This document shows, piece after piece, positions 2,646-60,754 of a stretch of 64,000 bases of DNA; position 1 is the stretch's first letter, and every line of letters starts with the position of its first letter. The DNA is taken from positions 31,746,001 to 31,810,000 of the forward strand of contig NC_086097.1 of assembly GCF_963921235.1 (NCBI RefSeq), read 5' to 3'. The notes under the pieces were generated by a model. It ran no database searches, was not told where the DNA came from, and saw only the letters and a list, made by a program, of their open reading frames with translations. A program made the translations under genes and the position numbers. This stretch comes from Mobula hypostoma. Its lineage: Eukaryota.

Positions 2646-3279
2646 AATGTATAAGAATGATCCTAGTCATAAAAGGGTTAATGCATGAGGAATGTTTCAT
2701 GACTTTGGGCCTGTTCTCACCGGAATTCAGAAGAATAAGGGAATCTCATTGAAACCAATTGGATATTGAAAGGTCTAGATGGAATGGACATGGAGAGGAT
2801 GTTTCCTATAGTGGGGGAGTCTGGACCAGAGTAAACAGCTTCAGAAAAGATGCCCTTTTAGAACAGAGGTAAGATGGAATTTCTTTAGACAGAGGGTGGT
2901 GAATCTGTGCAATTCGTTGCCACAGATGGCTATGAGTATGTTTAAGGCAGAAGTTGATAGATTCTTGATTAGTAAAGGTGTCAAAGGTTACGGGGAGATG
3001 GTGGGAGAATGGAGTTGAGAGAGAAATTAAATCAGCCATGATTGAATGGCAGGGAAAACACGATGGGCCAAATGCTCTGACGTCTTATGGTTTTATGCCC
3101 TAAAAAATGGTTATGAGCTAGATTTAGCAGGAAGGGTTAAATATAATCCAGGAGGTTCTTCAGTTGTCTTATTGTAACAGTCTCTGAAGAGACTAGGTGC
3201 TCCTAAAGATTATCAGGGATGCAGATGTGTGGAGCTGCTGAAGCTGGAGATTTTTAAGGTCTATTTCTCCTCAGTGTTT

Positions 3280-6110
3280 AGAACCATAGAAACCATAGAA
3301 ACTACAGCATAGAAATAGGCCCTCTGGCCCTTCTTGGCTGTGCCGAACCATTTTCTGCCTAGTCCCACTGATCTGCACACGGACCAGATCCCTCCATACA
3401 CCTCCCATCCATGTATCTGTCCAATTTATTCTTGAATGTTAAAAAAGAACCCGCATTTACCACCTCGTCTGGCAGCTCATTCCATACTCCCATCACTCTC
3501 TGTGTGAAGAAGCCCCCCCTAATGTTCCCTTTAAACTTTTCCCCCCTCACCCCTAACCCACGTCCTCTGGTTTTTTTCTCCCATTGCCTCAGTGGAAAAA
3601 GCCGGCTTGCATTCACTCTATCTATACCCATCATAATTTTATATACCTCTAACAAATCTCCCCTCATTCTTCTGCGCTCCAGGGAATAAAGTCCTAACCT
3701 ATTCAACCTTTCTCTGTAACTGAGTTTCTCAAGTCCCGGCAACATCCTTGTAAACCTTCTCTGCACTCTTTCAACCTTATTTATATCCTTCCTGTAATTT
3801 GGTGACCAAAACTGAACACAATACTCCAGATTCGGCCTCACCAATGCCTTATACAACCTCATCATAACATTCCAGCTCTTACACTCAATACTTTGATTAA
3901 TAAAGGCCAATGTACCAAAAGCTCTCTTTACGACCCTATCTACCTGTGACGACACTTTTAGGGAATTTTGTATCTGTATTCCCAGATCCCTCTGTTCCAC
4001 TGCACTCCTCAGTGCCGTACCATTAACCCTGTATGTTCTACGTTGGTTTGTCTTTCCAACGTGCAATACCTCACACTTGTCAGTATTAAACTCCATCTGC
4101 CATTTTTCAGCCCATTTTTCCAGCTGGTCCAAGTCCCTCTGCAGGCTCTGAAAACCTTCCTCACTGTCTACTACACCTCCAATCTTTGTATCATCAGCAA
4201 ACTTGCTGATCCAATTTACCACATTATCATCCAGATCATTGATATAGATGACAAATAACAATGGACCCAGCACTGATCCCTGTGGCACACCACTAGTCAC
4301 AGGCCTCCACTCAGAGAAGCAATTCTCTACCACCACTCTCTGGCTTCTTCCATCGAGCCAATGTCTAATCCAATTTACCACCTCTCCATGTATACCTAGC
4401 GACTGAATTTTCCTAACTAACCTCCCATGCGGGACCTTGTCAAAGGCCTTACTGAAGTCCATGTAGACAATACCCACTGCTTTCCCTTCATCCACTTTCC
4501 TGGTAACCTCCTCGAAAAACTCCAACAGATTGGTCAAACATGACCTACCACGCACAAAGCCATATTGACTCTCCCTAATAAGCCCCTGTCTATCCAAATG
4601 CTTGTAGATTCTGTCTCTTAGTAGTCCCTCCAATAACTTACCTACTACTGACGTTAAACTCACCGGCCTATAATTTCCCGGATTACTTTTTGATCCTTTT
4701 TTAAACAACGGAACAACATGAGCCACTCTCCAATCCTCCGGCACTTCACCCGTAGACAGCGACATTTTAAATATTTCTGCCAGGGCCCCCGCAATTTCAA
4801 CACTAGTCTCCTTCAAGGTCCGAGGGAACACTCTGTCAGGTCCCGGGGATTTATCCACTTTAATTTTCCTCAAGACAGCAAGCACCTCCTCCTTTTCAAT
4901 CTGTACAGTTTCCATGGTCTCACTACTTGATTCCCTCAAGTCCATAGATTTCATGCCAGCTTCCTTAGTAAATACAGACGCAAAAAACCTATTTAAGATC
5001 TTCCCCATTTCCTTTGGTTCCGCACAAAGCCGACCACTCTGATCTTCAAGAGGACCAATTTTATCCCTTACAATCCTTTTGCTCTTAATATACTTGTAAA
5101 AGCTCTTTGGATTATCCTTCACTTTGACTGCCAAGGCAACCTCATGTCTTCTTTTTGCCCTCCTGATTTCTTTCTTAAGTATTTTCTTGCACTTCTTATA
5201 CTCCTCAAGCACCTGATTTACCCCCTGTTTCCTATACATTTCATAAAACTCCCTCTTCTTCTTTATCAGAGTTGCAATATCCCTTGAGAACCAAGGTTCC
5301 TTATTCCTATTCAATTTGCTTTTAATCCTGACAGGAACATACAAACTCTGCACTCTCAAAATTTCCCCTTTGAAGGCTTCCCACCTACCAATCACATCTT
5401 TGCCAGAGAACAACCTGTCCCAATCCATGCTTTTTAGATCCTTTCTCATTTCTTCAAATTTGGCCTTCTTCCAGTTCAGAACCTCAAACCTTGGACCAGA
5501 TCTATCCTTGTCCATGATCAAATTGAAACTAATGGTGTTATGATCACTGGAACCAAAGTGCTCCCCTACACAGACTTCTGTCACTTGCCCTAATTCGTTT
5601 CCTAACAGGAGATCCAATATTGCATCCCCTCTAGTTGGTCCCTCTATATACTGATTTAGAAAACTTTCCTGAACACATTTTACAAACTCTAAACCATCTA
5701 GACCCCTAACAGTATGGGAGTCCCAATCAATGTATGGAAGATTAAAATCTCCTACCACCACAACTTTATGTTTCCTGCAGTTGCCTGCTATCTCTCTGCA
5801 GATTTGCTCTTCCAAGTCTCGTTGACTATTGGGTGGTCTGTAATACAATCCCACTAATGTGGCCATACCTTTCCTGTTTCTCAGCTCCACCCATAAGGAC
5901 TCAGTAGACAAGCCCTCTAATCTGTCCTGCCTGAGCACTGCTGTAATATTCTCCCTAACAAGCAAAGCTACTCCCCCACCTTTCATTCCTCTGCCTCGAT
6001 CACATCTGAAACATCTGAACCCTGGAATATTAAGCTGTCAGTCCTGCCCCTCCTGTAGCCAAGTTTCACTAATTGCTACAACATCATAATTCCACGTGTC
6101 AATCCACGCC
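3280..6110 (-). mobile_element. CR1-clade LINE with near-complete, uninterrupted ORF2 (APE endonuclease + RT)
   Basis: 875-aa ORF 3359-5986 with [48 protein letters not shown] and CR1 C-terminal motifs; (ATGGTTTCT)n tail near 3280-3300. Confidence 0.95.
3359..5986 (-). CDS. CR1 ORF2 endonuclease/reverse transcriptase (5'-truncated, open for 875 codons)
   Basis: ORF track; complete RT motif set with no internal stops. Confidence 0.85.
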   Translation of the reverse strand: MKGGGVALLVRENITAVLRQDRLEGLSTESLWVELRNRKGMATLVGLYYRPPNSQRDLEEQICREIAGNCRKHKVVVVGDFNLPYIDWDSHTVRGLDGLEFVKCVQESFLNQYIEGPTRGDAILDLLLGNELGQVTEVCVGEHFGSSDHNTISFNLIMDKDRSGPRFEVLNWKKAKFEEMRKDLKSMDWDRLFSGKDVIGRWEAFKGEILRVQSLYVPVRIKSKLNRNKEPWFSRDIATLIKKKREFYEMYRKQGVNQVLEEYKKCKKILKKEIRRAKRRHEVALAVKVKDNPKSFYKYIKSKRIVRDKIGPLEDQSGRLCAEPKEMGKILNRFFASVFTKEAGMKSMDLRESSSETMETVQIEKEEVLAVLRKIKVDKSPGPDRVFPRTLKETSVEIAGALAEIFKMSLSTGEVPEDWRVAHVVPLFKKGSKSNPGNYRPVSLTSVVGKLLEGLLRDRIYKHLDRQGLIRESQYGFVRGRSCLTNLLEFFEEVTRKVDEGKAVGIVYMDFSKAFDKVPHGRLVRKIQSLGIHGEVVNWIRHWLDGRSQRVVVENCFSEWRPVTSGVPQGSVLGPLLFVIYINDLDDNVVNWISKFADDTKIGGVVDSEEGFQSLQRDLDQLEKWAEKWQMEFNTDKCEVLHVGKTNQRRTYRVNGTALRSAVEQRDLGIQIQNSLKVSSQVDRVVKRAFGTLAFINQSIECKSWNVMMRLYKALVRPNLEYCVQFWSPNYRKDINKVERVQRRFTRMLPGLEKLSYRERLNRLGLYSLERRRMRGDLLEVYKIMMGIDRVNASRLFPLRQWEKKTRGRGLGVRGEKFKGNIRGGFFTQRVMGVWNELPDEVVNAGSFLTFKNKLDRYMDGRCMEGSGPCADQWD

Positions 6111-8859: not shown

Positions 8860-10040
8860 AATAGACAATAGACAATAGGTGCAGGAGTAGGCCATTCGGC
8901 CCTTCGAGCCAGCACCACCATTCACTGTGATCAAGGCTGATCATCCACAATTAGTACCCCGTTCCTGCCTTCTCCTCATATCCCTTGACTCTGCTATCAT
9001 TAAGAGCTCTATCTAACTCTTTCTTGAAAGCATCCAGAGAATTGGCCTCCACTGCCTTCTGAGGCAGAGCATTCCACAGATCCACAACTCTCTGGGTGAA
9101 AAAGATTTTCCTCAACCCCGTTCTATATGGCCTACCCCTTATTCTCAGACTATGGCCTCTGGTTCTGGACTCCCCCAACATTGGGAACGTGTTTCCTGCC
9201 TCTAGTGTGTCCAATCCCTTAATAATCTTACATGTTTCAATTAGATCCTCTCTCATCCTTCTAAATTCCAGTGTATACAAGCCCAGTCGCTCCAATCTTT
9301 CTACATATAACAGTCCTGCCACCCCAGGAATTAACCTTGTGAACCTACACTGCACTCCCTCAATAGCAAGAATGTCCTTCCTCAAATTTGGAGACCAAAA
9401 CTGTACACAATACTCCAGGTGTGGTCTCACCAGGGCCCTGTACAACTGCAGAAGGACCTCTTTGCTCCTATACTCAACTCCCCTTGTTATGAAGGCCAAC
9501 ATGCCATTAGCTTTCTTCACTGCCTGCTGTACCTGCATGCATACTTTCAGTGACTGATGTACAAGGACACCTAGATCTCGTTGTACTTCCCCTTTTCCTA
9601 ACTTGATACCATTCAGATAAGAATCAGCCTTCCTGAACTTGCCACCAAACTGGATAACCTTATACTTAACCACATTAAACTGCATCTGCCATGCATCTGC
9701 CCACTCACCCAACCTGTCCAAGTCATCCTGCATTATCATAACATCCTCCGCACATTTCACACTGCCACCCAGTTTTGTGTCATTTGCAAATTTGCTAATG
9801 TTACTTTTAATCCCTTCACCTAAATCATTAATGTATATTGTAAATAGCTGTGGTCCCAGCACTGAGCCTTGCGGTACCCCACTAGTCACTGCCTGCCATT
9901 CTGAAAGGGACCCGTTAATCCCTACTCTTTGTTTCCTGTCTACCAACCAATTTTCTCTCCATGTCAGTACCCTTCCCCCAATACCATGTGCTCTAATTTT
10001 GCCCACTAATCTCCTATGTGGGACCTTACCAAAGGCTTTC
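8860..10040 (-). mobile_element. CR1 LINE 3' fragment, nested
   Basis: ORF 8951-10006 with [30 protein letters not shown]; (CTATTGT)n tail. Confidence 0.92.
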
Positions 10041-10498
10041 TGTCCTTATCTTCTGTCTTCTGTATCCGTCTTTGCTGTCCGGATGTTCCAGTGTTGAGTG
10101 AAGAGCCAATGAAATGGCATTTGCTGTGGATCTGTTGTGATAGTGGGCAAATTGAGGTAGATCAAAGTTGCTTCTCAGGCAGGAGTTGATATGTTTCTTC
10201 ACAACCTCTTAAAGCACTTCATCACAGTAGATGTAAGTGCTACAGGGCGATAATCATTGAGATAGGTTGCCACATTCTTCTTAGGCACTGATACAGTATA
10301 ATTGAAGCCTGCTCGAAGCAGGTGGGTACCTCAGATGGTGGTTAATGTTTCTTTGTTCAATAGTAGCAAGGACAGGGCAGGAGACTACAGGCTGGTGAGC
10401 CTGAGTTCAGTTGTAAGGAAGTTACCAAAGGTAACTCTGAGGGACAAGATCGACCATCACTTGCATAGTCAAGGCATGATCAGGAATAGTCGGCATGG

Positions 10499-10534
<36 letters not shown>

Positions 10535-10668
10535 TCATGTCTGATAGACATTTAGGAATTTTTCAAAGAGGTAACTAAGGGGATAAATGAAGTTAGGACA
10601 GTAGATGTTGTCTATATAAACTGTAGTAAGGACTTTGACAAGGACCTGCCTGGCAGGCTGATCTGAAC

Positions 10669-10891
10669 TGTTGTGTATGTGGCCTGGTTACACAACAATG
10701 CTATTAATAAAAATGCTGGAGACGGGAGCTAAGGTTCATGGTTCTTTACTGGCAGAAACCAAACTCAGCACACACGTACAGATCAATACGCGCCTAATAG
10801 TGCATGCTCAATATGCGCCCAGTAGCGCATTCAACGACGTGATACTAAAACTTAAAGTAGTCTCTTATTATACTGTAGGCTATATGGTACA
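10669..10891 (-). repeat. 3' LTR (223 bp)
   Basis: Direct repeat of 13761-13983; about 14 substitutions and no indels by manual alignment. Confidence 0.95.
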
Positions 10892-10904
10892 CTCCTCCCC
10901 TTTT
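10892..10904 (-). promoter_or_regulatory. Polypurine tract
   Basis: Minus-strand AAAAGGGGAGGAG directly abuts the 3' LTR. Confidence 0.9.
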
Positions 10905-11081
10905 ATTTTAATAGTGTATCAACTGTTTTTTTTACTGGGGCACTATGCTAAACAAATATGTTTACCCTTAACATACAAATGCCTACCGTTTGTTTACTTA
11001 GTAACTAAATAATATCAAACTAAAACAAAGTAACATAATAATATCAAATTAGCCTTTTTTTACTTTTGGTCTAAGATCCAT

Positions 11082-11135
11082 TTATAACTCGAGTCTCGGG
11101 GGGGGTCTTCTCTGCCTCTCTGGGTAATATCTGTC
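11082..11135 (-). pseudogene. Residual C-terminal tip of Gypsy pol (integrase end)
   Basis: Translates to DRYYPERQRRPPPRLEL*, resembling the RYPxRxRxPPxRL ending common in vertebrate Gypsy pol proteins. Confidence 0.6.
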
Positions 11136-11241
11136 AATAAATTTGTTTGTTTAAATACAGATTTCCATATAAAAGTCATGAAAAGTTGACCTCTGATCAT
11201 AGGGAGTTAAGAAGATGTGCGCCTCCAACTTGCTAAGAGTT

Positions 11242-12174
11242 CTAGGCAGCAGATTGCCTCCATATAATGAAGACTCCTCTGTGCAGCTGTACTAGATATA
11301 TATGCATCTTTGTGCTATCACTTGTCTTCTTTACCCATATCTCATTTGTTCCAACTGAGCTAATTACACAGCCAATCTTCATATTTGCCTTAGATTCCAA
11401 ATAGATAGCCTGACCTTTATGATACCATCTCTTATCGTAATATAACTTTCCATCTTCTATTCGTGCTTCATATCTTTGTGCTACTGATTCAGCAGGAATG
11501 CTGGGAAGATGCTCAGGAGAAGACTGAGTCTTTTCGGAGATTTAAGCTTATTGCAAGTTCACAGATCTTCCATTATCTGTTCATCTGTCTGTTAATAAGT
11601 AATTTAACTGCGCAGGTGCAGGTTTTTGTCTTTTGTCTGTAATTGGAACAGGGTCATTGGGTCTCCTCCTTAGTTTCCTAGTCATTATTGGCTTTACCTC
11701 CATAGAATCTCCTGTGAGTTCCATTGTTAGCCTCTCATTCTCAATCATCTTTTTCTTTTCTTCTAACTCAATTGTTTTATCTTCAAATTCCTTCACTGCT
11801 GCTTTCTTCTCTTTAATATAATTCCTTTCCACTTGTTCTGTCTCCAGTTGCAGAAAAAGCTCTGCATTTCGTATTCTTTCCTTGTATTGTTGATCTAGTT
11901 TCTTCATCCTTTTCTGATACTCCTGCAAAGTGCCTTCCTGTAACTGCTGTAGCTATCTTTTGAGAGACGTCAATTTCTCCTGGTACATCTGCTCTTTTAC
12001 TTCCAGGTAGTCTTCATTATCCTGCTTATTGGCAATATCTGTCTCACTTGCATCCTCTGTATCTTCATCTGAGTCATGGCCACGGATACTGCATTCATCC
12101 TCATCGTCGACACTGTCTAGCTCCTCATCGTCATTGTAATAGTCGACAATGGGTGAGAAGAGAGCTGCAGACAT
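11242..12174 (-). pseudogene. SUDS3: Processed (intronless) SUDS3/SDS3 retrocopy, full CDS length, disabled
   Basis: Reads MSAALFSP...[13 protein letters not shown]...[73 protein letters not shown]...[27 protein letters not shown]...[19 protein letters not shown]...RQSAA*, recognisable as vertebrate SDS3. Stop at 11953-11955; frameshifts near 11585 and 11525. Confidence 0.95.
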
Positions 12175-12199
12175 CTTCCCTGCCGAGCTGCCCTCCTTT

Positions 12200-13380
12200 G
12201 TTGACACATCTAGTGCCTTGATGTTGTACCAATCCAACTGGATTTTCCTGAGCCATTCACGTCCCAGCAATGATGGTCCTCCATTTTTCAGTACATAGAG
12301 GTGCAGCTGCTGTGTTTTATCTCCACAGGTCACTGTCACTTTAATTTTGCCTCCGGGATGCACTTTCTGTCCTGTGTAAGTCTTTAGTAGAAGGTTAGTT
12401 CGTTTCAGAGATAGGTGCGAAAACAGTCGTTTGTAGTCATGTACAGAGATCACTGTTAAAGCTGGGCCTGTGTCCAACTCCATTTTCAGTCTCACGCCCA
12501 CCACTTGTGGAGTGATCAATATTACTCTTCGATCATCTGTCTCTTTCACGCTGTGAAGTTGCCAACAAGACAATTCACTTTCATCGGAGTCGTTTTCATC
12601 AGAACTGCCTTCTTTCATTTTGTGTACCTTGTTTTATTTTCCCTTCTGGGGTTTCTTGTTTCTCTGTATTTTGCCCTTATTCTGCTGTTTACTAGCTTTT
12701 CATACTCTGCCAATGTGGCCCCGTTTGCCACAGTTTCTGCATTCTTTGTCTTTAATTCAACAGTCATCTGGGTCATGTGACCTGTTCCCACAATGGTAAC
12801 ATTTCTTTCCTTCATTCCTGTTCAGTGACATTTTATTTGTGGCATATTCCAGAGACTTCTGTTGTATCTGGGAAGCACCCCATGCCGCTGTTTCTGTTGA
12901 TATTGCAATGTTTAGCGCTTTCTCAAATGTAAGGTCTCTTTCACACAGAAGCTTCTTCTGTGTGGTTTCATGGTGCATGCCACACACTAACCTGTCCCTC
13001 AATGCATCTGACAGACCAGCTCCAAATTGACAATGTTCTGATAATTTGCACAATTCAGCACAATATTCAGAAATGCTTTCATTTTTGCTCTGATTCTGTT
13101 TGTGAAATTTAAATCTTTCAGCAATGACCAGTGGTTTGTGGTTTAAATGCTGTTGGAGGGTGTCTACTATTTGCTTGAACGTTTTGTCAGCTGGCTTTTC
13201 AGGAATTAACAAGCTCTGTAGCAGACCGTATGTTTTTGCTCCCATCATACTGAGTAAGACGCTGACTTTCTTTTCATCATTAACACCATTAGCCTCACAA
13301 TATGACTCTACTCTCTCAATGTAGGTTGCCTAGTCTTCAATGCCACTATCAGATGCTGTAATGGTTCCAATCATCGCCAT
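12200..13380 (-). pseudogene. Gypsy gag + aspartic protease, one frame with 4 internal stops
   Basis: ATG at 13380 (MAMIGTI...), [66 protein letters not shown]. Confidence 0.92.
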
Positions 13381-13746
13381 CTTTGTTATGTTAATTTAGC
13401 CCCACTTTCCCCTTGTTTTCTTTTTGACTCGTGTCCTTTTTGCTAGCGCCACGAGTGCACTCCGTCCCGATGCATGTGTCACTTCTTTTTATCTCCCTTC
13501 TGGGGCAGGCAGACCCTCAGTCCCCGGGGGTCAGCGCCGGCTGTGGTCTCGGCTGGATGTGCCGTGGCTCGGACTGTGTCTCTTGGTCTCCTGACGTTCC
13601 TGACCCCGGCTGTGCTCCCGCTTCCTTTCAGACTCGCAGTCTCGCTCTGCCTCCTTCTCCCGCTCCTTGGCTCGTTCCTTGCATTCTTCCTCCGAGTGTC
13701 GTTATCAACTAAAACTTGGCGTTCCGATAAGATGTAGGTTCATTAA

Positions 13747-13757
13747 CCTCGTCGCCA
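13747..13757 (-). promoter_or_regulatory. Primer-binding site, probably tRNA-Ser(GCU)
   Basis: Minus-strand TGGCGACGAGG 3 nt after the 5' LTR; complementary to the ...CCUCGUCGCCA 3' end of vertebrate tRNA-Ser(GCU) as recalled. Confidence 0.85.
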
Positions 13758-13760
13758 ATT

Positions 13761-13983
13761 TGTTGTGTATGTGGCCTGGTTACACAACAATGCTATTAAT
13801 AAAAATGCTGGAGACGGGAGCTAAGGTTCATGGCTCCTTACTGGCAGAAACGGAACTCGGCACACACGTACAGATCAATATGCGCCTAATAGCGCGTGCT
13901 CAATATACGCCTAATAGTGCATTCAACGACGTGTTACTAAAACATAAAGTAGTCTCTTATTATACTGTAGGCTATATGGTACA
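13761..13983 (-). repeat. 5' LTR (223 bp)
   Basis: Direct repeat of 10669-10891, followed by the PBS. Confidence 0.95.
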
Positions 13984-14569
13984 TGAACGATTCAGTTGTA
14001 TGAGTGAAGTAGTTTCAGAGGTTGGCTGATACTAGAACTAGAGCTTCTAGTTCGAGTTCTAGGTTAAGGGTGAAGGATGAAATAGTTAAGGGAACCTGAG
14101 GGGGAACTTCTTCCAACAGATGGTGGTGCAAGTGTGGATTGAGCTGCCAGCAGAAGTGGTGAATGTGGGTTTGATTGCAACATTTTTAGAGAAATTAGGT
14201 TAAAGTTCATGGATGGGAGGGATATGGAGGCCTATGGCTCAGATACAGAATGACTGTTCGTTGTGGATTAGGTAGGTCTATTTCTGTGCTCTAGTCCTCC
14301 AACTCTGTGACTATAACTCTACCCAACCTCTCCCTCCAGAATTTCCTTGAGTCCTGGCACTATCGTCATAAATCTTCTCTGCATTCCTGAGCAATTGGCA
14401 AAATGCAGGAGGAACTCAGCAGGTCAGTCCCGATGAAGGGTCTTGACCCAAAACATTGACTGTCCATTTCCATCCATAGATGCTGCCTCACCTGCTGGGT
14501 TCCTCCAGCATTTCATGTGGAGGGAGGGAGGGAAGGATGGAAGAAAAGAAGGAAGGAAGGCTGGCTTTA

Positions 14570-58400: not shown

Positions 58401-60754
58401 AATGGGAGGTGACAATGTGTCCAAGGAGACCCATTATTATTTGGCTAGTCTGTCATCCAAAAATAAATTTAATTTGCAGTTTTTTTCTGTAATGGCAGCA
58501 GCCGGTGTGTGCTGGTTGTTGAGAGCCATTGGATTTTTTTGATTGAAGCAATTTCACCAGCCGCCTTTCAGATGAGGCTGCTTGATGTTATTGACCCCCA
58601 TCTGCACCGGAGTCTCACAAAATCCCGTCACCCTCCGCACCCCTTACAACCACTTTGCTGCGGTGCACAGGAAAACAGGGTGGATGAGCAGAGCAGGGCA
58701 AGCCCCCCCTCCAACAGTTGGGTAGACATCTGCTCCTCCACACCGGCAGGATTTAATCCCCCCTCCTTGGACAGTTCCCAACACTACAGACCCCCCCTCC
58801 CTACTGCAGGACTGTAGGTTGGGAGGGGGGAAAGGACGGGGAACTGAACAAACCTGCTGTTAACCATGGGTGATATTGGAGTTTTCATAAAATACAGGGA
58901 GGTGTCTCCTACAGCATTTTAGAGCACTACAGCACAGAAACAGGCCCTTTGGTTCATCGGCACACAAGAGGTACTGCAGATGCTGGAAATCGAGAGCGAC
59001 GCACACAATGTGCCAGAAGAGCTCAGCAGGTCAGGCAGCATCTGTGGATGGGAATAAGCAGTCAACGTTCGGGCCAAGACCCTTTATCAGTGATGCCTTT
59101 CCCTTCCAGAAGAGGGGTCTTGGACCAAAACATTGACTGTTTTTCCCATTCATAGATGCTGCCTGATCCGCTGAGCTCCTATAGCACTTTGTGTGATTTG
59201 CTTTGGTCCGTCTAGTCCGTGCAGAACTATTATTTTGCCTTGTTGCATTGACCCCCACCTGAACCATAGCCTTCATACTCCTCCCATGATGTACCAATCC
59301 AAATTTCTCTTAAATGTTGCAGTCAAAGCCACATCCACCACTTCTGCTGGCAGCTTGTTCCACACTCTCACCATCCTCTGAGTGAAGCAGTTCCCCGTCA
59401 GGTTCCCCTTAAATATTTCACTTTTCACCCTTAACCCATGACCTCTAGTTCCTGTCTCACCCAACATCAGTGGAAAAAGCCTACTTGCATTTACCCTACC
59501 TATATCTCTCATAGTTTTGCGTACCTCTATCAAATCTCCCCTCATTCTCCCATACTCCAGGGAATAACCTATTCCCTACAACTCAGTGGGACACTCCCTC
59601 ACTACCTCCCCTCCCACAGTGTGACCTTCCCTCAATGCCTCCTTCCCCTTCAGTTTTTTTCCATCCTCTAGTGAGGCCGAATTTCCCGAACCTTCCTCCC
59701 CATCAGGAACGTAGCCATCCTCGCTGGCAAGCAGAGCGCCTCCCCCATTAATCCGCTGTGCTGAGGCGCTCTGTGTCTCAGCTCAAGTCTGCCTTTGACC
59801 GAGAGGCCCCCACGGGGTTGGAAGATGCTGCGCCAACCAGCAGATTGCTGAGTTTGGGTCCAAGTTCGACGACAGATTTGTGGCAACCTCGCGATTCCGC
59901 TTCCAAATTAATAGTGCATCAGTCCACATTCCCCTGATTTAATCTCTATCCCCAAATTAGGTTGGAGTCTAAAATTCACTTCAAAGTCTCACACTAATCT
60001 GCCTTTAATTATAAAGATGAATTTTGTCTCTTGCCCGATGCTTATCTGCCTGGGCTGTCATTAAGTTGAGTGGACATCGAGATGATATACTTTGTTTTGT
60101 ATCTGGATAATTCAAAGGTTTATAGAAAAGTAGATGCGCTGTTCATTAAAAATGATGCGAGGGGGTGGAAGGGGGGTGCTGAGGTTTCAGCAGAGGGTCT
60201 CAATATTGTTGTTGGCCCTTTGAAACTTCTCTTCCATCCTTGGCAAAGTGAGCTGACATAACTTCCACTGGATATAGCTCATCAAGTGAAGGCAGTGGGG
60301 GAGGGCGTTCTTATCTTTAAGACCAAATCTCTCTTTCAAACTTTGATGGGAAGTGGGGTGGGAGTTGAGGACAGGGGGACCTTAAAATGACAGCCAAGAA
60401 GTCAGGAGCAAAGTTACCAAAACCATTGTCAGAGTACGGAGAAAGTTGAGGGTCACTGATTGAGTTGATCAAAGTCAAAGTTAAAGCAAATTTATTATGG
60501 AAGTACTCTTAAGTCATGATATACTACCTGGAGCTACATTTTCTTGCAGACATTTAAAGAAAAATGAAGAAATACAATAGAATTTATGAAAGATTATAAG
60601 TACATAAATAAAGACTGACAAACAAATACTGACAACATGTGTTGTAGAGTCCTTGAAACTGAGTTTGTACGTTGTGGAATCAGTTCAGATTTGAAGTGAG
60701 TGAGGCTATCCTCACTGGTTCAGAAGCCTGATAGTTGAAGAGTAATAACTGTTC

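What the first reader, a model, noticed from the sequence alone, without database searches (positions are those of the whole stretch)
10669..13983. Gypsy LTR element that has transduced a host SUDS3 mRNA in place of RT-RNaseH-integrase
Seen: minus-strand order is 5'LTR, PBS, gag, protease, intronless SUDS3 CDS plus ~100 nt of probable 3'UTR, last ~17 codons of pol, PPT, 3'LTR. A perfect 5-bp TSD (TGAAC) flanks it. It sits inside a CR1 fragment whose [11 protein letters not shown]-like frame resumes on the far side. The SUDS3 segment has no poly(A) tail or TSD of its own, and the RT/RNaseH/IN region is missing. Known: LTR elements can capture co-packaged cellular mRNAs by template switching during reverse transcription, as in retroviral oncogene transduction. 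Inference: this arose by double template switching and integrated as one unit. All cis signals are retained, so the chimera could have been mobilised in trans as a gene-carrying family.
Basis: partly seen in the sequence, partly recalled or inferred. Interest (0 to 1): 0.92.

Follow-up and report, generated by a model that had tools for sequence, protein, structure and literature searches.

The report
Gypsy retrotransposon family carrying SUDS3 gene
This is one decayed copy of a defective Gypsy-type jumping gene that swapped its own replication enzymes for a spliced copy of the host gene SUDS3 and then spread to hundreds of places in a ray genome, a large vertebrate example of a known way of copying genes.

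Summary
On the minus strand, 13983-10669 is an LTR element. It has 223-nt LTRs (14 differences), a perfect 5-bp target duplication, PBS, gag, protease, an intronless SUDS3 cDNA, the last 16 pol codons and a PPT.

The intron-bearing parental SUDS3 gene lies on another contig (C78). An RT-RNaseH-integrase relative with the same LTRs defines both junctions. The 5' junction sits in a 7-nt overlap, GGGCAGC. This copy's 3' junction sits in a 7-nt overlap, GACAGAC. There is no poly(A) and no separate duplication around SUDS3.

This is not a one-off. The 30-nt protease|SUDS3 junction occurs 266 times in the genome (≤3 mismatches); the autonomous protease-RT junction occurs 203 times. Of ten full-length copies, seven have perfect and mutually different 5-bp duplications.

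All copies share a 24-nt in-exon deletion, so there was a single capture. Copies form a star-like tree and decay neutrally.

The leader holds a second host fragment, the 3' end of ACIN1b mRNA, captured earlier. This copy's 3' junction is a secondary variant; a sister form keeps about 340 nt of SUDS3 3'UTR.

The mechanism is known (LTR-mediated retroposition). The scale is unusual.

The parts
13984..13988 (-). Upstream copy of the 5-bp target-site duplication (GTTCA on the minus strand)
   Evidence: Direct reading; alignment of both LTR edges.
13761..13983 (-). 5' LTR, 223 nt, TG..CA
   Evidence: the repeat finder D1, 94%. 14/223 differences from the 3' LTR, K2P 0.066. 1498 first-look candidates genome-wide, 40 of 40 scored at 91-100%.
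13747..13757 (-). PBS-like 11-mer starting TGG, 3 nt after the LTR
   Evidence: Direct reading. Kept with one change in the autonomous copy (output of the auto leader). The tRNA partner was not tested.
13501..13693 (-). Captured 3' end of ACIN1b mRNA in the leader: about 53 codons, the stop at 13533-13531, and 30 nt of 3'UTR
   Evidence: The protein hit matches the C-terminus of ray ACIN1b, P0121. The parental last exon is at G000:C40:16842843-16843112, 96% over 90 aa, while the other 149 of 150 scored hits match only the captured part. DNA alignment to L065.
12194..13380 (-). gag (two CCHC knuckles) and aspartic protease, one frame, decayed
   Evidence: ORFs. Sub-threshold Pfam hits to DUF7083/PNMA and gag-asp_proteas. 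89-93% identity to the autonomous copy.
12187..12193 (-). 5' junction: 7-nt overlap GGGCAGC shared by the Gypsy protease end and the SUDS3 5'UTR
   Evidence: Three-way comparison of chimera, autonomous copy and parental exon 1. Contig loose ends at 12193 and 12187.
11242..12186 (-). SUDS3 cDNA: 12 nt of 5'UTR, then CDS 12174-11242 (stop included), intronless, in frame with protease, 4 stops in this copy
11765..11770 (-). Site of the family-wide 24-nt deletion (8 codons) between TGAGTT direct repeats inside one parental exon
   Evidence: Parental exon L063 against the chimera. 148 of 150 scored hits have the deleted length. An RNA-run contig carries the 24 nt here (table 4).
11136..11241 (-). 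SUDS3 3'UTR, first about 106 nt
   Evidence: 94.8% identity to the parental last exon plus UTR, L064.
11129..11135 (-). 3' junction of the short form: 7-nt overlap GACAGAC shared by the SUDS3 3'UTR and the end of pol
   Evidence: RNA-run loose end at 11130 continues as the parental 3'UTR.
10905..11128 (-). Tail of Gypsy pol (16 codons plus stop in the autonomous copy) and the element's 3' untranslated region
   Evidence: 90% identity to the autonomous copy, el 3049-3515.
10892..10904 (-). Polypurine tract abutting the 3' LTR
   Evidence: Direct reading. The same tract precedes 3' LTRs in other copies.
10669..10891 (-). 3' LTR
10664..10668 (-). Downstream copy of the target-site duplication

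Best explanation
This is one old copy of a non-autonomous Ty3/Gypsy-type LTR retrotransposon family. In the family's founder, RT, RNase H and integrase were replaced by a reverse-transcribed, spliced SUDS3 mRNA.

Most likely sequence of events:
1. An autonomous lineage first took about 190 nt of the 3' end of ACIN1b mRNA into its untranslated leader. It stayed autonomous.
2. Later, inside a virus-like particle, minus-strand DNA synthesis copied the 3' end of the element's RNA and then switched into the 3'UTR of a co-packaged SUDS3 mRNA.
3. It copied that mRNA almost to its 5' end, slipping once between two TGAGTT repeats and losing 24 nt.
4. It switched back to the element RNA at a GGGCAGC overlap just after the protease.

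The product kept the LTRs, PBS, PPT, leader, gag and protease, with SUDS3 fused in frame. It could therefore be transcribed, packaged and integrated using RT and integrase supplied by autonomous relatives.

It then amplified in a burst to at least about 270 copies. A further switch at a GACAGAC overlap produced the short-3'UTR form seen in this window.

Copies have since decayed neutrally, so SUDS3 looks like a passenger.

Shown: the anatomy, intron loss, overlaps, copy number, separate target duplications, the autonomous partner, the star-like tree and flat codon-position decay.

Inferred: co-packaging, the order and strand of the switches, helper supply in trans, and translation of a Gag-PR-SDS3 fusion.
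For: Anatomy and TSD.

Autonomous relative (L061+L028). It has LTR, gag, PR, RVT_1, RT_RNaseH, rve and LTR. Homology to the chimera stops at el 1997 and resumes at el 3049.

Parental SUDS3 on C78 (minus strand), spanning at least 59 kb.
- Exon 1 donor, the KENLIAEL-exon acceptor and donor, and the last-exon acceptor are all present in the gene and absent from the chimera.
- The parental 5'UTR reads ..GGCGGGCAGC-TCGG.. and the Gypsy reads ..GGAGGGCAGC-AAGG.., giving a 7-nt overlap.
- The parental 3'UTR reads ..TTGACAGAC-TGAAG and pol reads ..AGGACAGAC-GTTACC, giving a 7-nt overlap.
- The parental 3'UTR runs at least 400 nt past the longest captured form, and no poly(A) is present.

Independent contigs leave the chimera at exactly these points. 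One contig carries spliced SUDS3 with the 24 nt.

Family evidence.
- 40 of 40 scored hits (747 first-look candidates) span protease to SUDS3 at 90-100%.
- 31 of 31 other fetched copies are collinear across the 5' junction.
- The junction 30-mer has 266 matches and 0 in the reversed control. The autonomous junction has 203.
- The 24-nt deletion is present in 148 of 150 scored hits.
- TSDs are perfect and all different in 6 of 9 further full-length copies: 4/5 in two, 3/5 in one.
- The tree is star-like, with short and long 3' forms intermingled.
- Mean pairwise identity is 91.4%.
- Pairwise differences by codon position in SUDS3 are flat at 0.079/0.063/0.074 (frame corrected). In gag they are 0.082/0.088/0.115.
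- The SUDS3 frame is uninterrupted in 3 of 30 copies.

ACIN1b.
- Identification.
- An RT-bearing element with the ACIN1b leader exists, L066.
- 12 of 193 sites differ from the parent in at least 90% of copies. The figure is 4 of about 347 in the SUDS3 coding sites examined.

Mechanism precedent: Tan et al. 2016, PMC5131818, passages read.
Against: - Nothing here shows the switches happened at the RNA/cDNA level rather than by microhomology-mediated joining of DNA. The overlaps fit both.
- The long-form 3' junction has at most about 2 nt of overlap, so not every junction shows clear microhomology.
- Helper supply in trans is inferred from shared LTR, PBS, PPT and gag, and from copy numbers. It was not demonstrated.
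- The relation between the long and short 3' forms cannot be polarised from the tree.
- At least two chimeric copies lack the ACIN1b leader (cross-referenced by coordinates). The order 'ACIN1b first' therefore needs recombination or deletion to explain them.
- Only three of the parental gene's exons were fetched.
- Copy counts are junction-pattern matches or unverified first-look candidates, not a curated census.
- The LTR-anchored sample is biased, because the query was this copy's own LTR.
Confidence: 0.9

Rival explanations
1. DNA-level origin. A processed SUDS3 pseudogene and a Gypsy copy were joined in the genome by microhomology-mediated end joining or illegitimate recombination. The product then happened to be transcribed and mobilised.
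For: Overlaps of 7 nt are also typical of microhomology-mediated DNA repair. No tool used here can tell cDNA switching from DNA joining.
Against: It needs two precise joins that remove exactly RT-RH-IN while keeping every cis signal and the reading frame. It also needs a pre-existing stand-alone SUDS3 retrocopy. Among 150 scored hits, none was seen outside the family apart from the parental exon. A third microhomology event, the 24-nt slip, and a fourth, the short form, sit in the same lineage. That fits a template-switch-prone reverse transcriptase.
Confidence: 0.05
2. A LINE-mediated processed pseudogene of SUDS3 inserted into an existing Gypsy copy, followed by deletion of RT-RH-IN.
For: LINE reverse transcriptase sequences are common in this window. 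A 2026 preprint attributes vertebrate retrocopies to non-LTR machinery (passages read).
Against: There is no poly(A). The 3'UTR is cut off at least 400 nt before the end of the fetched parental UTR. There is no duplication around the SUDS3 part. Element sequence is replaced, not interrupted.
Confidence: 0.01
3. The SUDS3-like sequences are a functional, selected host gene family ('SDS3-like', as annotated in Mobula species) that merely sits in LTR elements.
For: NCBI models of 292-480 aa are named SDS3-like. 3 of 30 copies keep an open SUDS3 frame. Open frames of up to 573 aa surround some copies. The fusion is in frame.
Against: Differences among copies are spread evenly over codon positions. 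27 of 30 copies are interrupted. The tree is star-like. By my own rough estimate, 3 open frames in 30 is about what neutral decay of a 933-nt frame at this divergence would leave.
Confidence: 0.03
4. Assembly or chimeric-read artefact.
For: None found.
Against: 266 dispersed junction matches. Contigs from DNA runs of three coded organisms cover the element. A contig of a second organism bridges the 5' LTR and flank of this very insertion (record 24).
Confidence: 0.005

Closest known systems
LTR-mediated retrocopies of metazoans (Tan et al. 2016, Genome Res, PMC5131818; passages read)
   Same: A retrocopy lies between two LTRs and replaces part of the element's ORFs. Introns are lost and there is no poly(A). 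Microsimilarity at the switch points has a median of 6 bp there and is 7 and 7 bp here. Multi-gene captures occur. [quoted passage not shown]
   Different: In the passages I read, two Drosophila retrocopies had more than one insertion site, and single cases were reported in zebrafish, chicken and mammals. Here a complete CDS was carried to at least 266 junction-bearing copies in a cartilaginous fish. That is as many as or more than the helper's 203. Two successive captures and a secondary junction variant are also present.
Maize Bs1 and rice LTR elements with captured gene fragments (as cited in PMC5131818; details otherwise recalled)
   Same: A non-autonomous LTR element that keeps gag-like sequence and carries pieces of several cellular genes, transcribed as a pseudo-retrotransposon.
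   Different: Those are plant elements with low copy number (recalled). They carry gene fragments, not a full-length CDS fused in frame to protease.
Acutely transforming retroviruses (Gag-onc transduction; established knowledge, recalled)
   Same: A replication-defective genome in which pol sequences are replaced by a spliced cellular gene fused in frame to Gag, and which depends on a helper. Microhomology template switching operates at the 3' join.
   Different: There is no env and no evidence of infectivity or of any phenotype. The 5' join here lies inside exon 1's 5'UTR of a gene on another contig. A read-through or splice origin from an upstream provirus is therefore not indicated.
HERV-K capture of FAM8A1 in human (cited in PMC5131818)
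   Same: A vertebrate LTR element with a captured processed gene and microsimilarity at the fusion points.
   Different: That is a single untranscribed locus, not an amplified family.
Classical non-autonomous LTR elements (LARD/TRIM types; MaLR with MERVL as helper, cited)
   Same: They share LTR, PBS and PPT with an autonomous partner and rely on it in trans.
   Different: Their internal regions are not a recognisable host coding sequence.

Membership tests
Ty3/Gypsy-type LTR retrotransposon (non-autonomous derivative) | Direct LTRs ending TG..CA, flanked by a 4-6-bp target duplication | tested here: met
   223-nt LTRs with 14 differences. The 5-bp duplication is perfect here and in 6 of 9 other full-length copies.
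Ty3/Gypsy-type LTR retrotransposon (non-autonomous derivative) | PBS next to the 5' LTR and polypurine tract next to the 3' LTR | tested here: met
   A TGG-initiated 11-mer lies 3 nt after the LTR, and a purine tract abuts the 3' LTR. The same features occur in relatives. Which tRNA primes it was not tested; no tRNA gene is in the window.
Ty3/Gypsy-type LTR retrotransposon (non-autonomous derivative) | gag with CCHC knuckles and a DTG aspartic protease | tested here: met
   The motifs can be read in the ORFs. Pfam hits fall below the curated cut-offs. Homology to the gag-protease of the RT-bearing relative is 89-93%.
Ty3/Gypsy-type LTR retrotransposon (non-autonomous derivative) | pol order PR-RT-RNaseH-IN in the autonomous members | tested here: met
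   RVT_1, RT_RNaseH and rve lie in that order on L061+L028. No formal RT phylogeny against Gypsy, BEL and retroviral clades was run.
Ty3/Gypsy-type LTR retrotransposon (non-autonomous derivative) | Own RT, RNase H and integrase | tested here: not met
   These are replaced by SUDS3 between el 1997 and el 3049. Hence the element is non-autonomous.
LTR-mediated retrocopy by template switching | A processed (intronless) host mRNA copy lies inside the element and replaces element sequence | tested here: met
   Four parental intron boundaries are absent from the chimera. Homology to the autonomous copy is interrupted exactly there.
LTR-mediated retrocopy by template switching | Short shared sequence at both switch points | tested here: met
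   GGGCAGC at the 5' join and GACAGAC at this copy's 3' join. The older long-form 3' join has at most about 2 nt.
LTR-mediated retrocopy by template switching | No poly(A) tail and no duplication around the retrocopy itself | tested here: met
Trans-mobilised non-autonomous family | Many dispersed copies sharing the same junctions, each with its own target duplication | tested here: met
   266 junction matches. 31 of 31 copies are collinear. Duplications are distinct.
Trans-mobilised non-autonomous family | An autonomous partner with matching LTR, PBS, PPT and gag in the same genome | tested here: met
   L061+L028 and L066. 203 protease-RT junction matches. 2222 first-look candidates for the integrase region.
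Trans-mobilised non-autonomous family | Direct demonstration that helper proteins move it | not testable with these tools
LINE-mediated processed pseudogene | 3' poly(A) and a 7-20-bp duplication flanking the retrocopy | tested here: not met
   Neither is present. The 3'UTR is truncated upstream of the rest of the parental UTR.
Retroviral oncogene-type transduction | A retroviral genome (env) and capture from a gene downstream of the provirus by read-through | tested here: not met
   No env lies between integrase and the LTR in the autonomous copy (ORF list). The parental gene is on another contig and the 5' join lies inside its first exon.

The most novel reading that the evidence does not exclude
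The passenger is not inert. On this reading, the in-frame Gag-protease-SDS3 fusion, or antisense or small RNAs from the roughly 270 SUDS3-bearing copies, interfered with Sin3/HDAC-based silencing or with the parental SUDS3 gene.

That would have given this defective family its edge over its own helper (266 against 203 junction matches). It would be a transposon that spread by carrying a piece of the host's repression machinery.

The evidence does not exclude this. A star-like burst leaves almost no power to detect selection on the master copy.
Probability: 0.07. Interest if true: 0.85.

Novelty: new member of a known kind. Interest (0 to 1): 0.6.

Why it matters
It is a clean, fully dissected vertebrate case of LTR-mediated gene transduction. 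Both parents of the chimera are identified in the same genome, every junction is mapped to the base, and secondary amplification is far beyond the few-copy cases described in the passages I read.

It also has a practical consequence. In this genome the SUDS3 'retrocopies' are passengers of one transposon family. They descend from a single capture, not from hundreds of independent retropositions.

Gene models named 'SDS3-like' in Mobula annotations are most likely these passengers. Retrocopy censuses and gene annotations in such genomes need to screen for transposon vehicles.

Tried and rejected
- Locating the parental last exon by degenerate patterns failed twice. One search gave 51 matches and one search gave 78 matches, none on C78. 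A DNA search with a long-form copy then found it.
- A search for a separate genomic source of the leader insert by DNA returned only family copies: 40 of 40 scored, 497 candidates. The source was found through the protein instead.
- Continuity of a LINE/CR1 fragment across the insertion site was not shown. The flank ORFs at 14015-14231 have no Pfam hit. The within-window repeats of the two flanks are not adjacent elsewhere.
- No tRNA gene lies in the window to test the PBS.
- Earlier findings of this scan: nothing by place or by sequence.
- Sequencing runs: no RNA holder listed. The run I treat as RNA (X15) is only guessed to be RNA by the tool. I rely on it solely for one contig that is spliced and carries the 24 nt, and for its loose ends.
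- I did not use depth as copy number.
- Test of whether another gene from the preprint's list is amplified here: SLU7 (PF11708) gives only one five-exon locus, so the phenomenon is not general for that list in this genome.
- Literature searches for this specific case found no description of it: 'SUDS3' plus 'retrotransposon'; 'Mobula' plus 'genome assembly' plus 'retrotransposon'; two broader searches.
- The subfamily tree did not separate the short and long 3' forms, so the order of these forms rests on junction logic only.
- One copy on C58 has an odd 18-nt insert at the deletion site. I could not decide whether it is a relic of the missing 24 nt.
Full report
**1. What is in the window**

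Read on the minus strand, 13983-10669 is a complete LTR element of 3315 nt.
- The 5-bp duplication GTTCA flanks it at 13988-13984 and 10668-10664.
- The two LTRs (13983-13761 and 10891-10669) are 223 nt each and begin TG and end CA. They differ at 14 positions, 11 of them transitions, K2P 0.066.
- A TGG-initiated 11-mer lies 3 nt after the 5' LTR. A purine tract abuts the 3' LTR.
- In between lie a leader, gag (ATG 13380, two CCHC knuckles), an aspartic protease (DTG near 12474) and a SUDS3 coding sequence without introns (ATG 12174, stop 11244-11242).
- About 113 nt of SUDS3 3'UTR follow, then roughly 240 nt that match the 3' end of related elements.
- gag, protease and SUDS3 lie in one reading frame. 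In this copy that frame is broken; there are 4 stops within SUDS3.
- Pfam hits are weak and below the curated cut-offs. The 123-aa open SUDS3 frame is 92-96% identical to annotated ray SDS3 proteins.

**2. The two parents of the chimera**

The LTR is a high-copy repeat in the window's own 3.48-Gb genome: 1498 first-look candidates, 40 of 40 scored at 91-100%.

One LTR hit (L028) had integrase upstream instead of SUDS3. Extending it (L061) gave an element with LTR, leader, gag, protease, RVT_1, RT_RNaseH, rve and LTR. This is a decayed autonomous-type Ty3/Gypsy relative.
- Its homology to the window element runs through gag and protease at 89-93%.
- It stops 13 nt before the SUDS3 ATG and resumes about 106 nt after the SUDS3 stop.

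The parental SUDS3 gene was found on contig C78, minus strand.
- One exon was found with a 44-aa query that includes eight residues missing from the window copy.
- Exon 1 was found by a junction-excluding pattern.
- The last exon was found by DNA search.
- The three exons span at least 59 kb and have ordinary splice sites. All are absent from the chimera, which joins the exons precisely.

**3. The junctions**

*5' join.*
- The Gypsy relative reads ..GGAGGGCAGC followed by AAGG. The parental 5'UTR reads ..GGCGGGCAGC followed by TCGG. The chimera reads ..GGAGGGCAGC followed by TCGG.
- The switch therefore lies within a 7-nt overlap, GGGCAGC (window 12193-12187; 9 of 10 with the preceding bases).
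- Only 12 further nucleotides of 5'UTR precede the ATG. The parental 5'UTR continues upstream (at least 37 nt in an RNA-run contig). The switch was therefore internal and not forced by the end of the template.

*3' join of this copy.*
- The parental 3'UTR reads ..TTGACAGAC followed by TGAAG. The pol end reads ..AGGACAGAC followed by GTTACC.
- The overlap is the 7-nt GACAGAC (11135-11129; one position has since changed in this copy).

*Chance.* By my own rough estimate, an overlap of 7 or more at a random join has a chance of about 5 in 10,000. This is not a tool result.

*Other signatures.* There is no poly(A). The parental UTR goes on for at least 400 nt beyond the longest captured form. There is no duplication around the SUDS3 part.

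*Independent check.* Contigs of public runs laid on the window gave the same boundaries.
- A contig of run X15 follows SUDS3 and leaves the chimera at 12193 into the parental 5'UTR. Another leaves at 11130 into the parental 3'UTR.
- Contigs of DNA runs X1 and X9 leave at 12187 into the RT side of autonomous elements.

**4. A family, and one capture**

- A 1161-nt query from protease end to 3' join found 747 first-look candidates. All 40 scored matched at 90-100%.
- 31 of 31 other fetched copies are collinear across the 5' join.
- The 30-nt protease|SUDS3 join occurs 266 times with at most 3 mismatches, and 0 times in the reversed control. The corresponding protease-RT join of autonomous elements occurs 203 times.
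- Every copy examined lacks the same 24 nt: 148 of 150 scored hits have the deleted length. One hit is the parental exon and one is an odd copy.
- In the parental gene these 24 nt lie inside one exon, between two TGAGTT repeats. This is a slip, not alternative splicing, and it marks a single founding event.
- Nine further full-length copies were completed by fetching their 5' ends. Six have perfect 5-bp duplications, two have 4/5 and one has 3/5. All are different from one another. Two of four solo LTRs also have perfect duplications.
- LTR-LTR distances in those nine are 0.087-0.154 (mean 0.129). By this measure the window copy (0.066) is the youngest of the ten. I did not obtain a neutral rate, so I give no absolute age.
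- A contig from a second coded organism (X5, record 24) bridges the 5' LTR and flank of this very insertion with 4 differences in 216 nt. The insertion is therefore shared by, or predates the split of, organisms A and B.

**5. Two forms of the 3' join**

About a third to a half of sampled copies keep about 340 nt of SUDS3 3'UTR: 14 of the 40 hits, and 6 of 11 SUDS3-bearing 3' ends in the LTR-anchored sample.
- This long form rejoins the element 21 nt further downstream in pol, with at most about 2 nt of overlap.
- The long form has UTR that the short form lacks. The short form has pol sequence that the long form lacks. Neither can therefore derive from the other by simple deletion.
- Both share the 5' join and the 24-nt deletion, so they are related by a further switch. 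Either an autonomous RNA recombined with a long-form RNA at GACAGAC, or, less simply, SUDS3 mRNA was re-copied.
- The tree of 30 copies is star-like with the two forms intermingled. The order therefore rests on this logic only.

**6. A second passenger**

The leader of the window copy has about 190 nt (13693-13501) that the first autonomous copy lacks.
- Its open frame matches the C-terminal residues and stop of ray ACIN1b (P0121).
- The parental last exon lies at C40:16842843-16843112, 96% over 90 aa. The other 149 of 150 scored hits match only the captured tail.
- The piece runs from a purine-rich stretch that resembles the leader at the join to 30 nt past the ACIN1b stop.
- An RT-bearing element with this ACIN1b leader exists (L066). 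Autonomous elements without it also exist: 5 cross-referenced by coordinates.
- 12 of 193 ACIN1b sites differ from the parent in at least 90% of copies. The figure is 4 of about 347 SUDS3 coding sites examined.
- I therefore read the ACIN1b capture as older, made in an autonomous lineage that later gave rise to the SUDS3 chimera.
- At least two chimeric copies without the ACIN1b piece would then be recombinants or deletions. This is not settled.

**7. Is SUDS3 doing anything?**

- Among 30 copies, pairwise differences in SUDS3 are even across codon positions: 0.079/0.063/0.074, and transversions 0.020/0.018/0.022. I re-assigned the positions after finding that the ATG is at 12174, not 12173 (and re-reading).
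- gag shows a mild third-position excess (0.082/0.088/0.115).
- 3 of 30 copies keep an uninterrupted SUDS3 frame. By my rough estimate, neutral decay would leave about that many.
- The four fixed coding differences from the parent in exon 1 are all third-position. They could lie on either lineage.
- SUDS3 thus looks like a passenger. A burst-like history gives little power to see selection on the master copy, so a role for the in-frame fusion is not excluded.

**8. Comparison with what is known**

The mechanism matches LTR-mediated retroposition as described by Tan et al. 2016 (PMC5131818; passages read). That work reports:
- retrocopies between LTRs that replace element ORFs;
- microsimilarity with a median of 6 bp at 25 of 29 junctions;
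- multi-gene captures;

It also resembles Gag-onc transduction by defective retroviruses (recalled knowledge), without env or any sign of infectivity.

What is unusual here is the scale and completeness: a whole CDS in frame, at least 266 copies, and two successive captures in one lineage.

I found no description of this case. A 2026 preprint lists SUDS3 among the top retrocopy parents in cartilaginous fishes without mentioning an LTR vehicle (passages read, supplements closed). SLU7, from the same list, is single-copy in this genome.

**9. Verdict**

It is a new, very large member of a known kind.

The one sub-claim I could not confirm is that a CR1-like frame resumes across the insertion.

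Noticed in passing
window 8951-10330 (minus) and 10500-10540: A LINE reverse-transcriptase fragment (RVT_1, E 3.5e-13) lies on the same strand about 340-620 bp downstream of the insertion. A (CA)n run lies between it and the insertion. I did not establish whether the LTR element split this LINE.
   Followed up: partly
L032, L048, L050 with L068, L073, L074 (other copies of the family): LTRs come in about 198-nt and about 223-nt lengths, differing by one unit of a 24-25-nt tandem repeat. In three elements the two LTRs of the same copy differ in this respect. That implies slippage after insertion or template switching during LTR synthesis.
   Followed up: no
P0002-P0005, P0011, P0046 (public gene models): Gene models named 'SDS3-like' in two Mobula species all lack the same eight residues as the transposon copies. 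One (P0003) includes the protease-junction residues. They are most likely annotated passengers of this family, not host paralogues.
   Followed up: partly
L067 = G000:C58:4449720-4450000: One chimeric copy has an 18-nt insert exactly at the site of the family-wide 24-nt deletion. It is only loosely similar to the missing parental sequence. It could be a relic of an earlier stage or a local duplication.
   Followed up: partly
G000:C50:91176220-91176471 and G000:C5:29286593-29286800: Two SUDS3-bearing copies appear, by coordinates only, to have the short leader without the ACIN1b piece. This hints at module shuffling between chimeric and autonomous RNAs.
   Followed up: no
window 14062-14242; also 59259-59436 and 3391-3558: The upstream flank of the insertion belongs to another interspersed repeat, with 75-81% similar copies elsewhere in the window. 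It is unclassified.
   Followed up: no
bioRxiv 10.64898/2026.06.26.734816 (passages): The preprint lists MIPOL1, SUDS3, SDF2L1, SLU7 and ZNF276 as top retrocopy parents in cartilaginous fishes. SUDS3 is explained here by a transposon vehicle. SLU7 is single-copy in this genome. The other three were not checked.
   Followed up: partly
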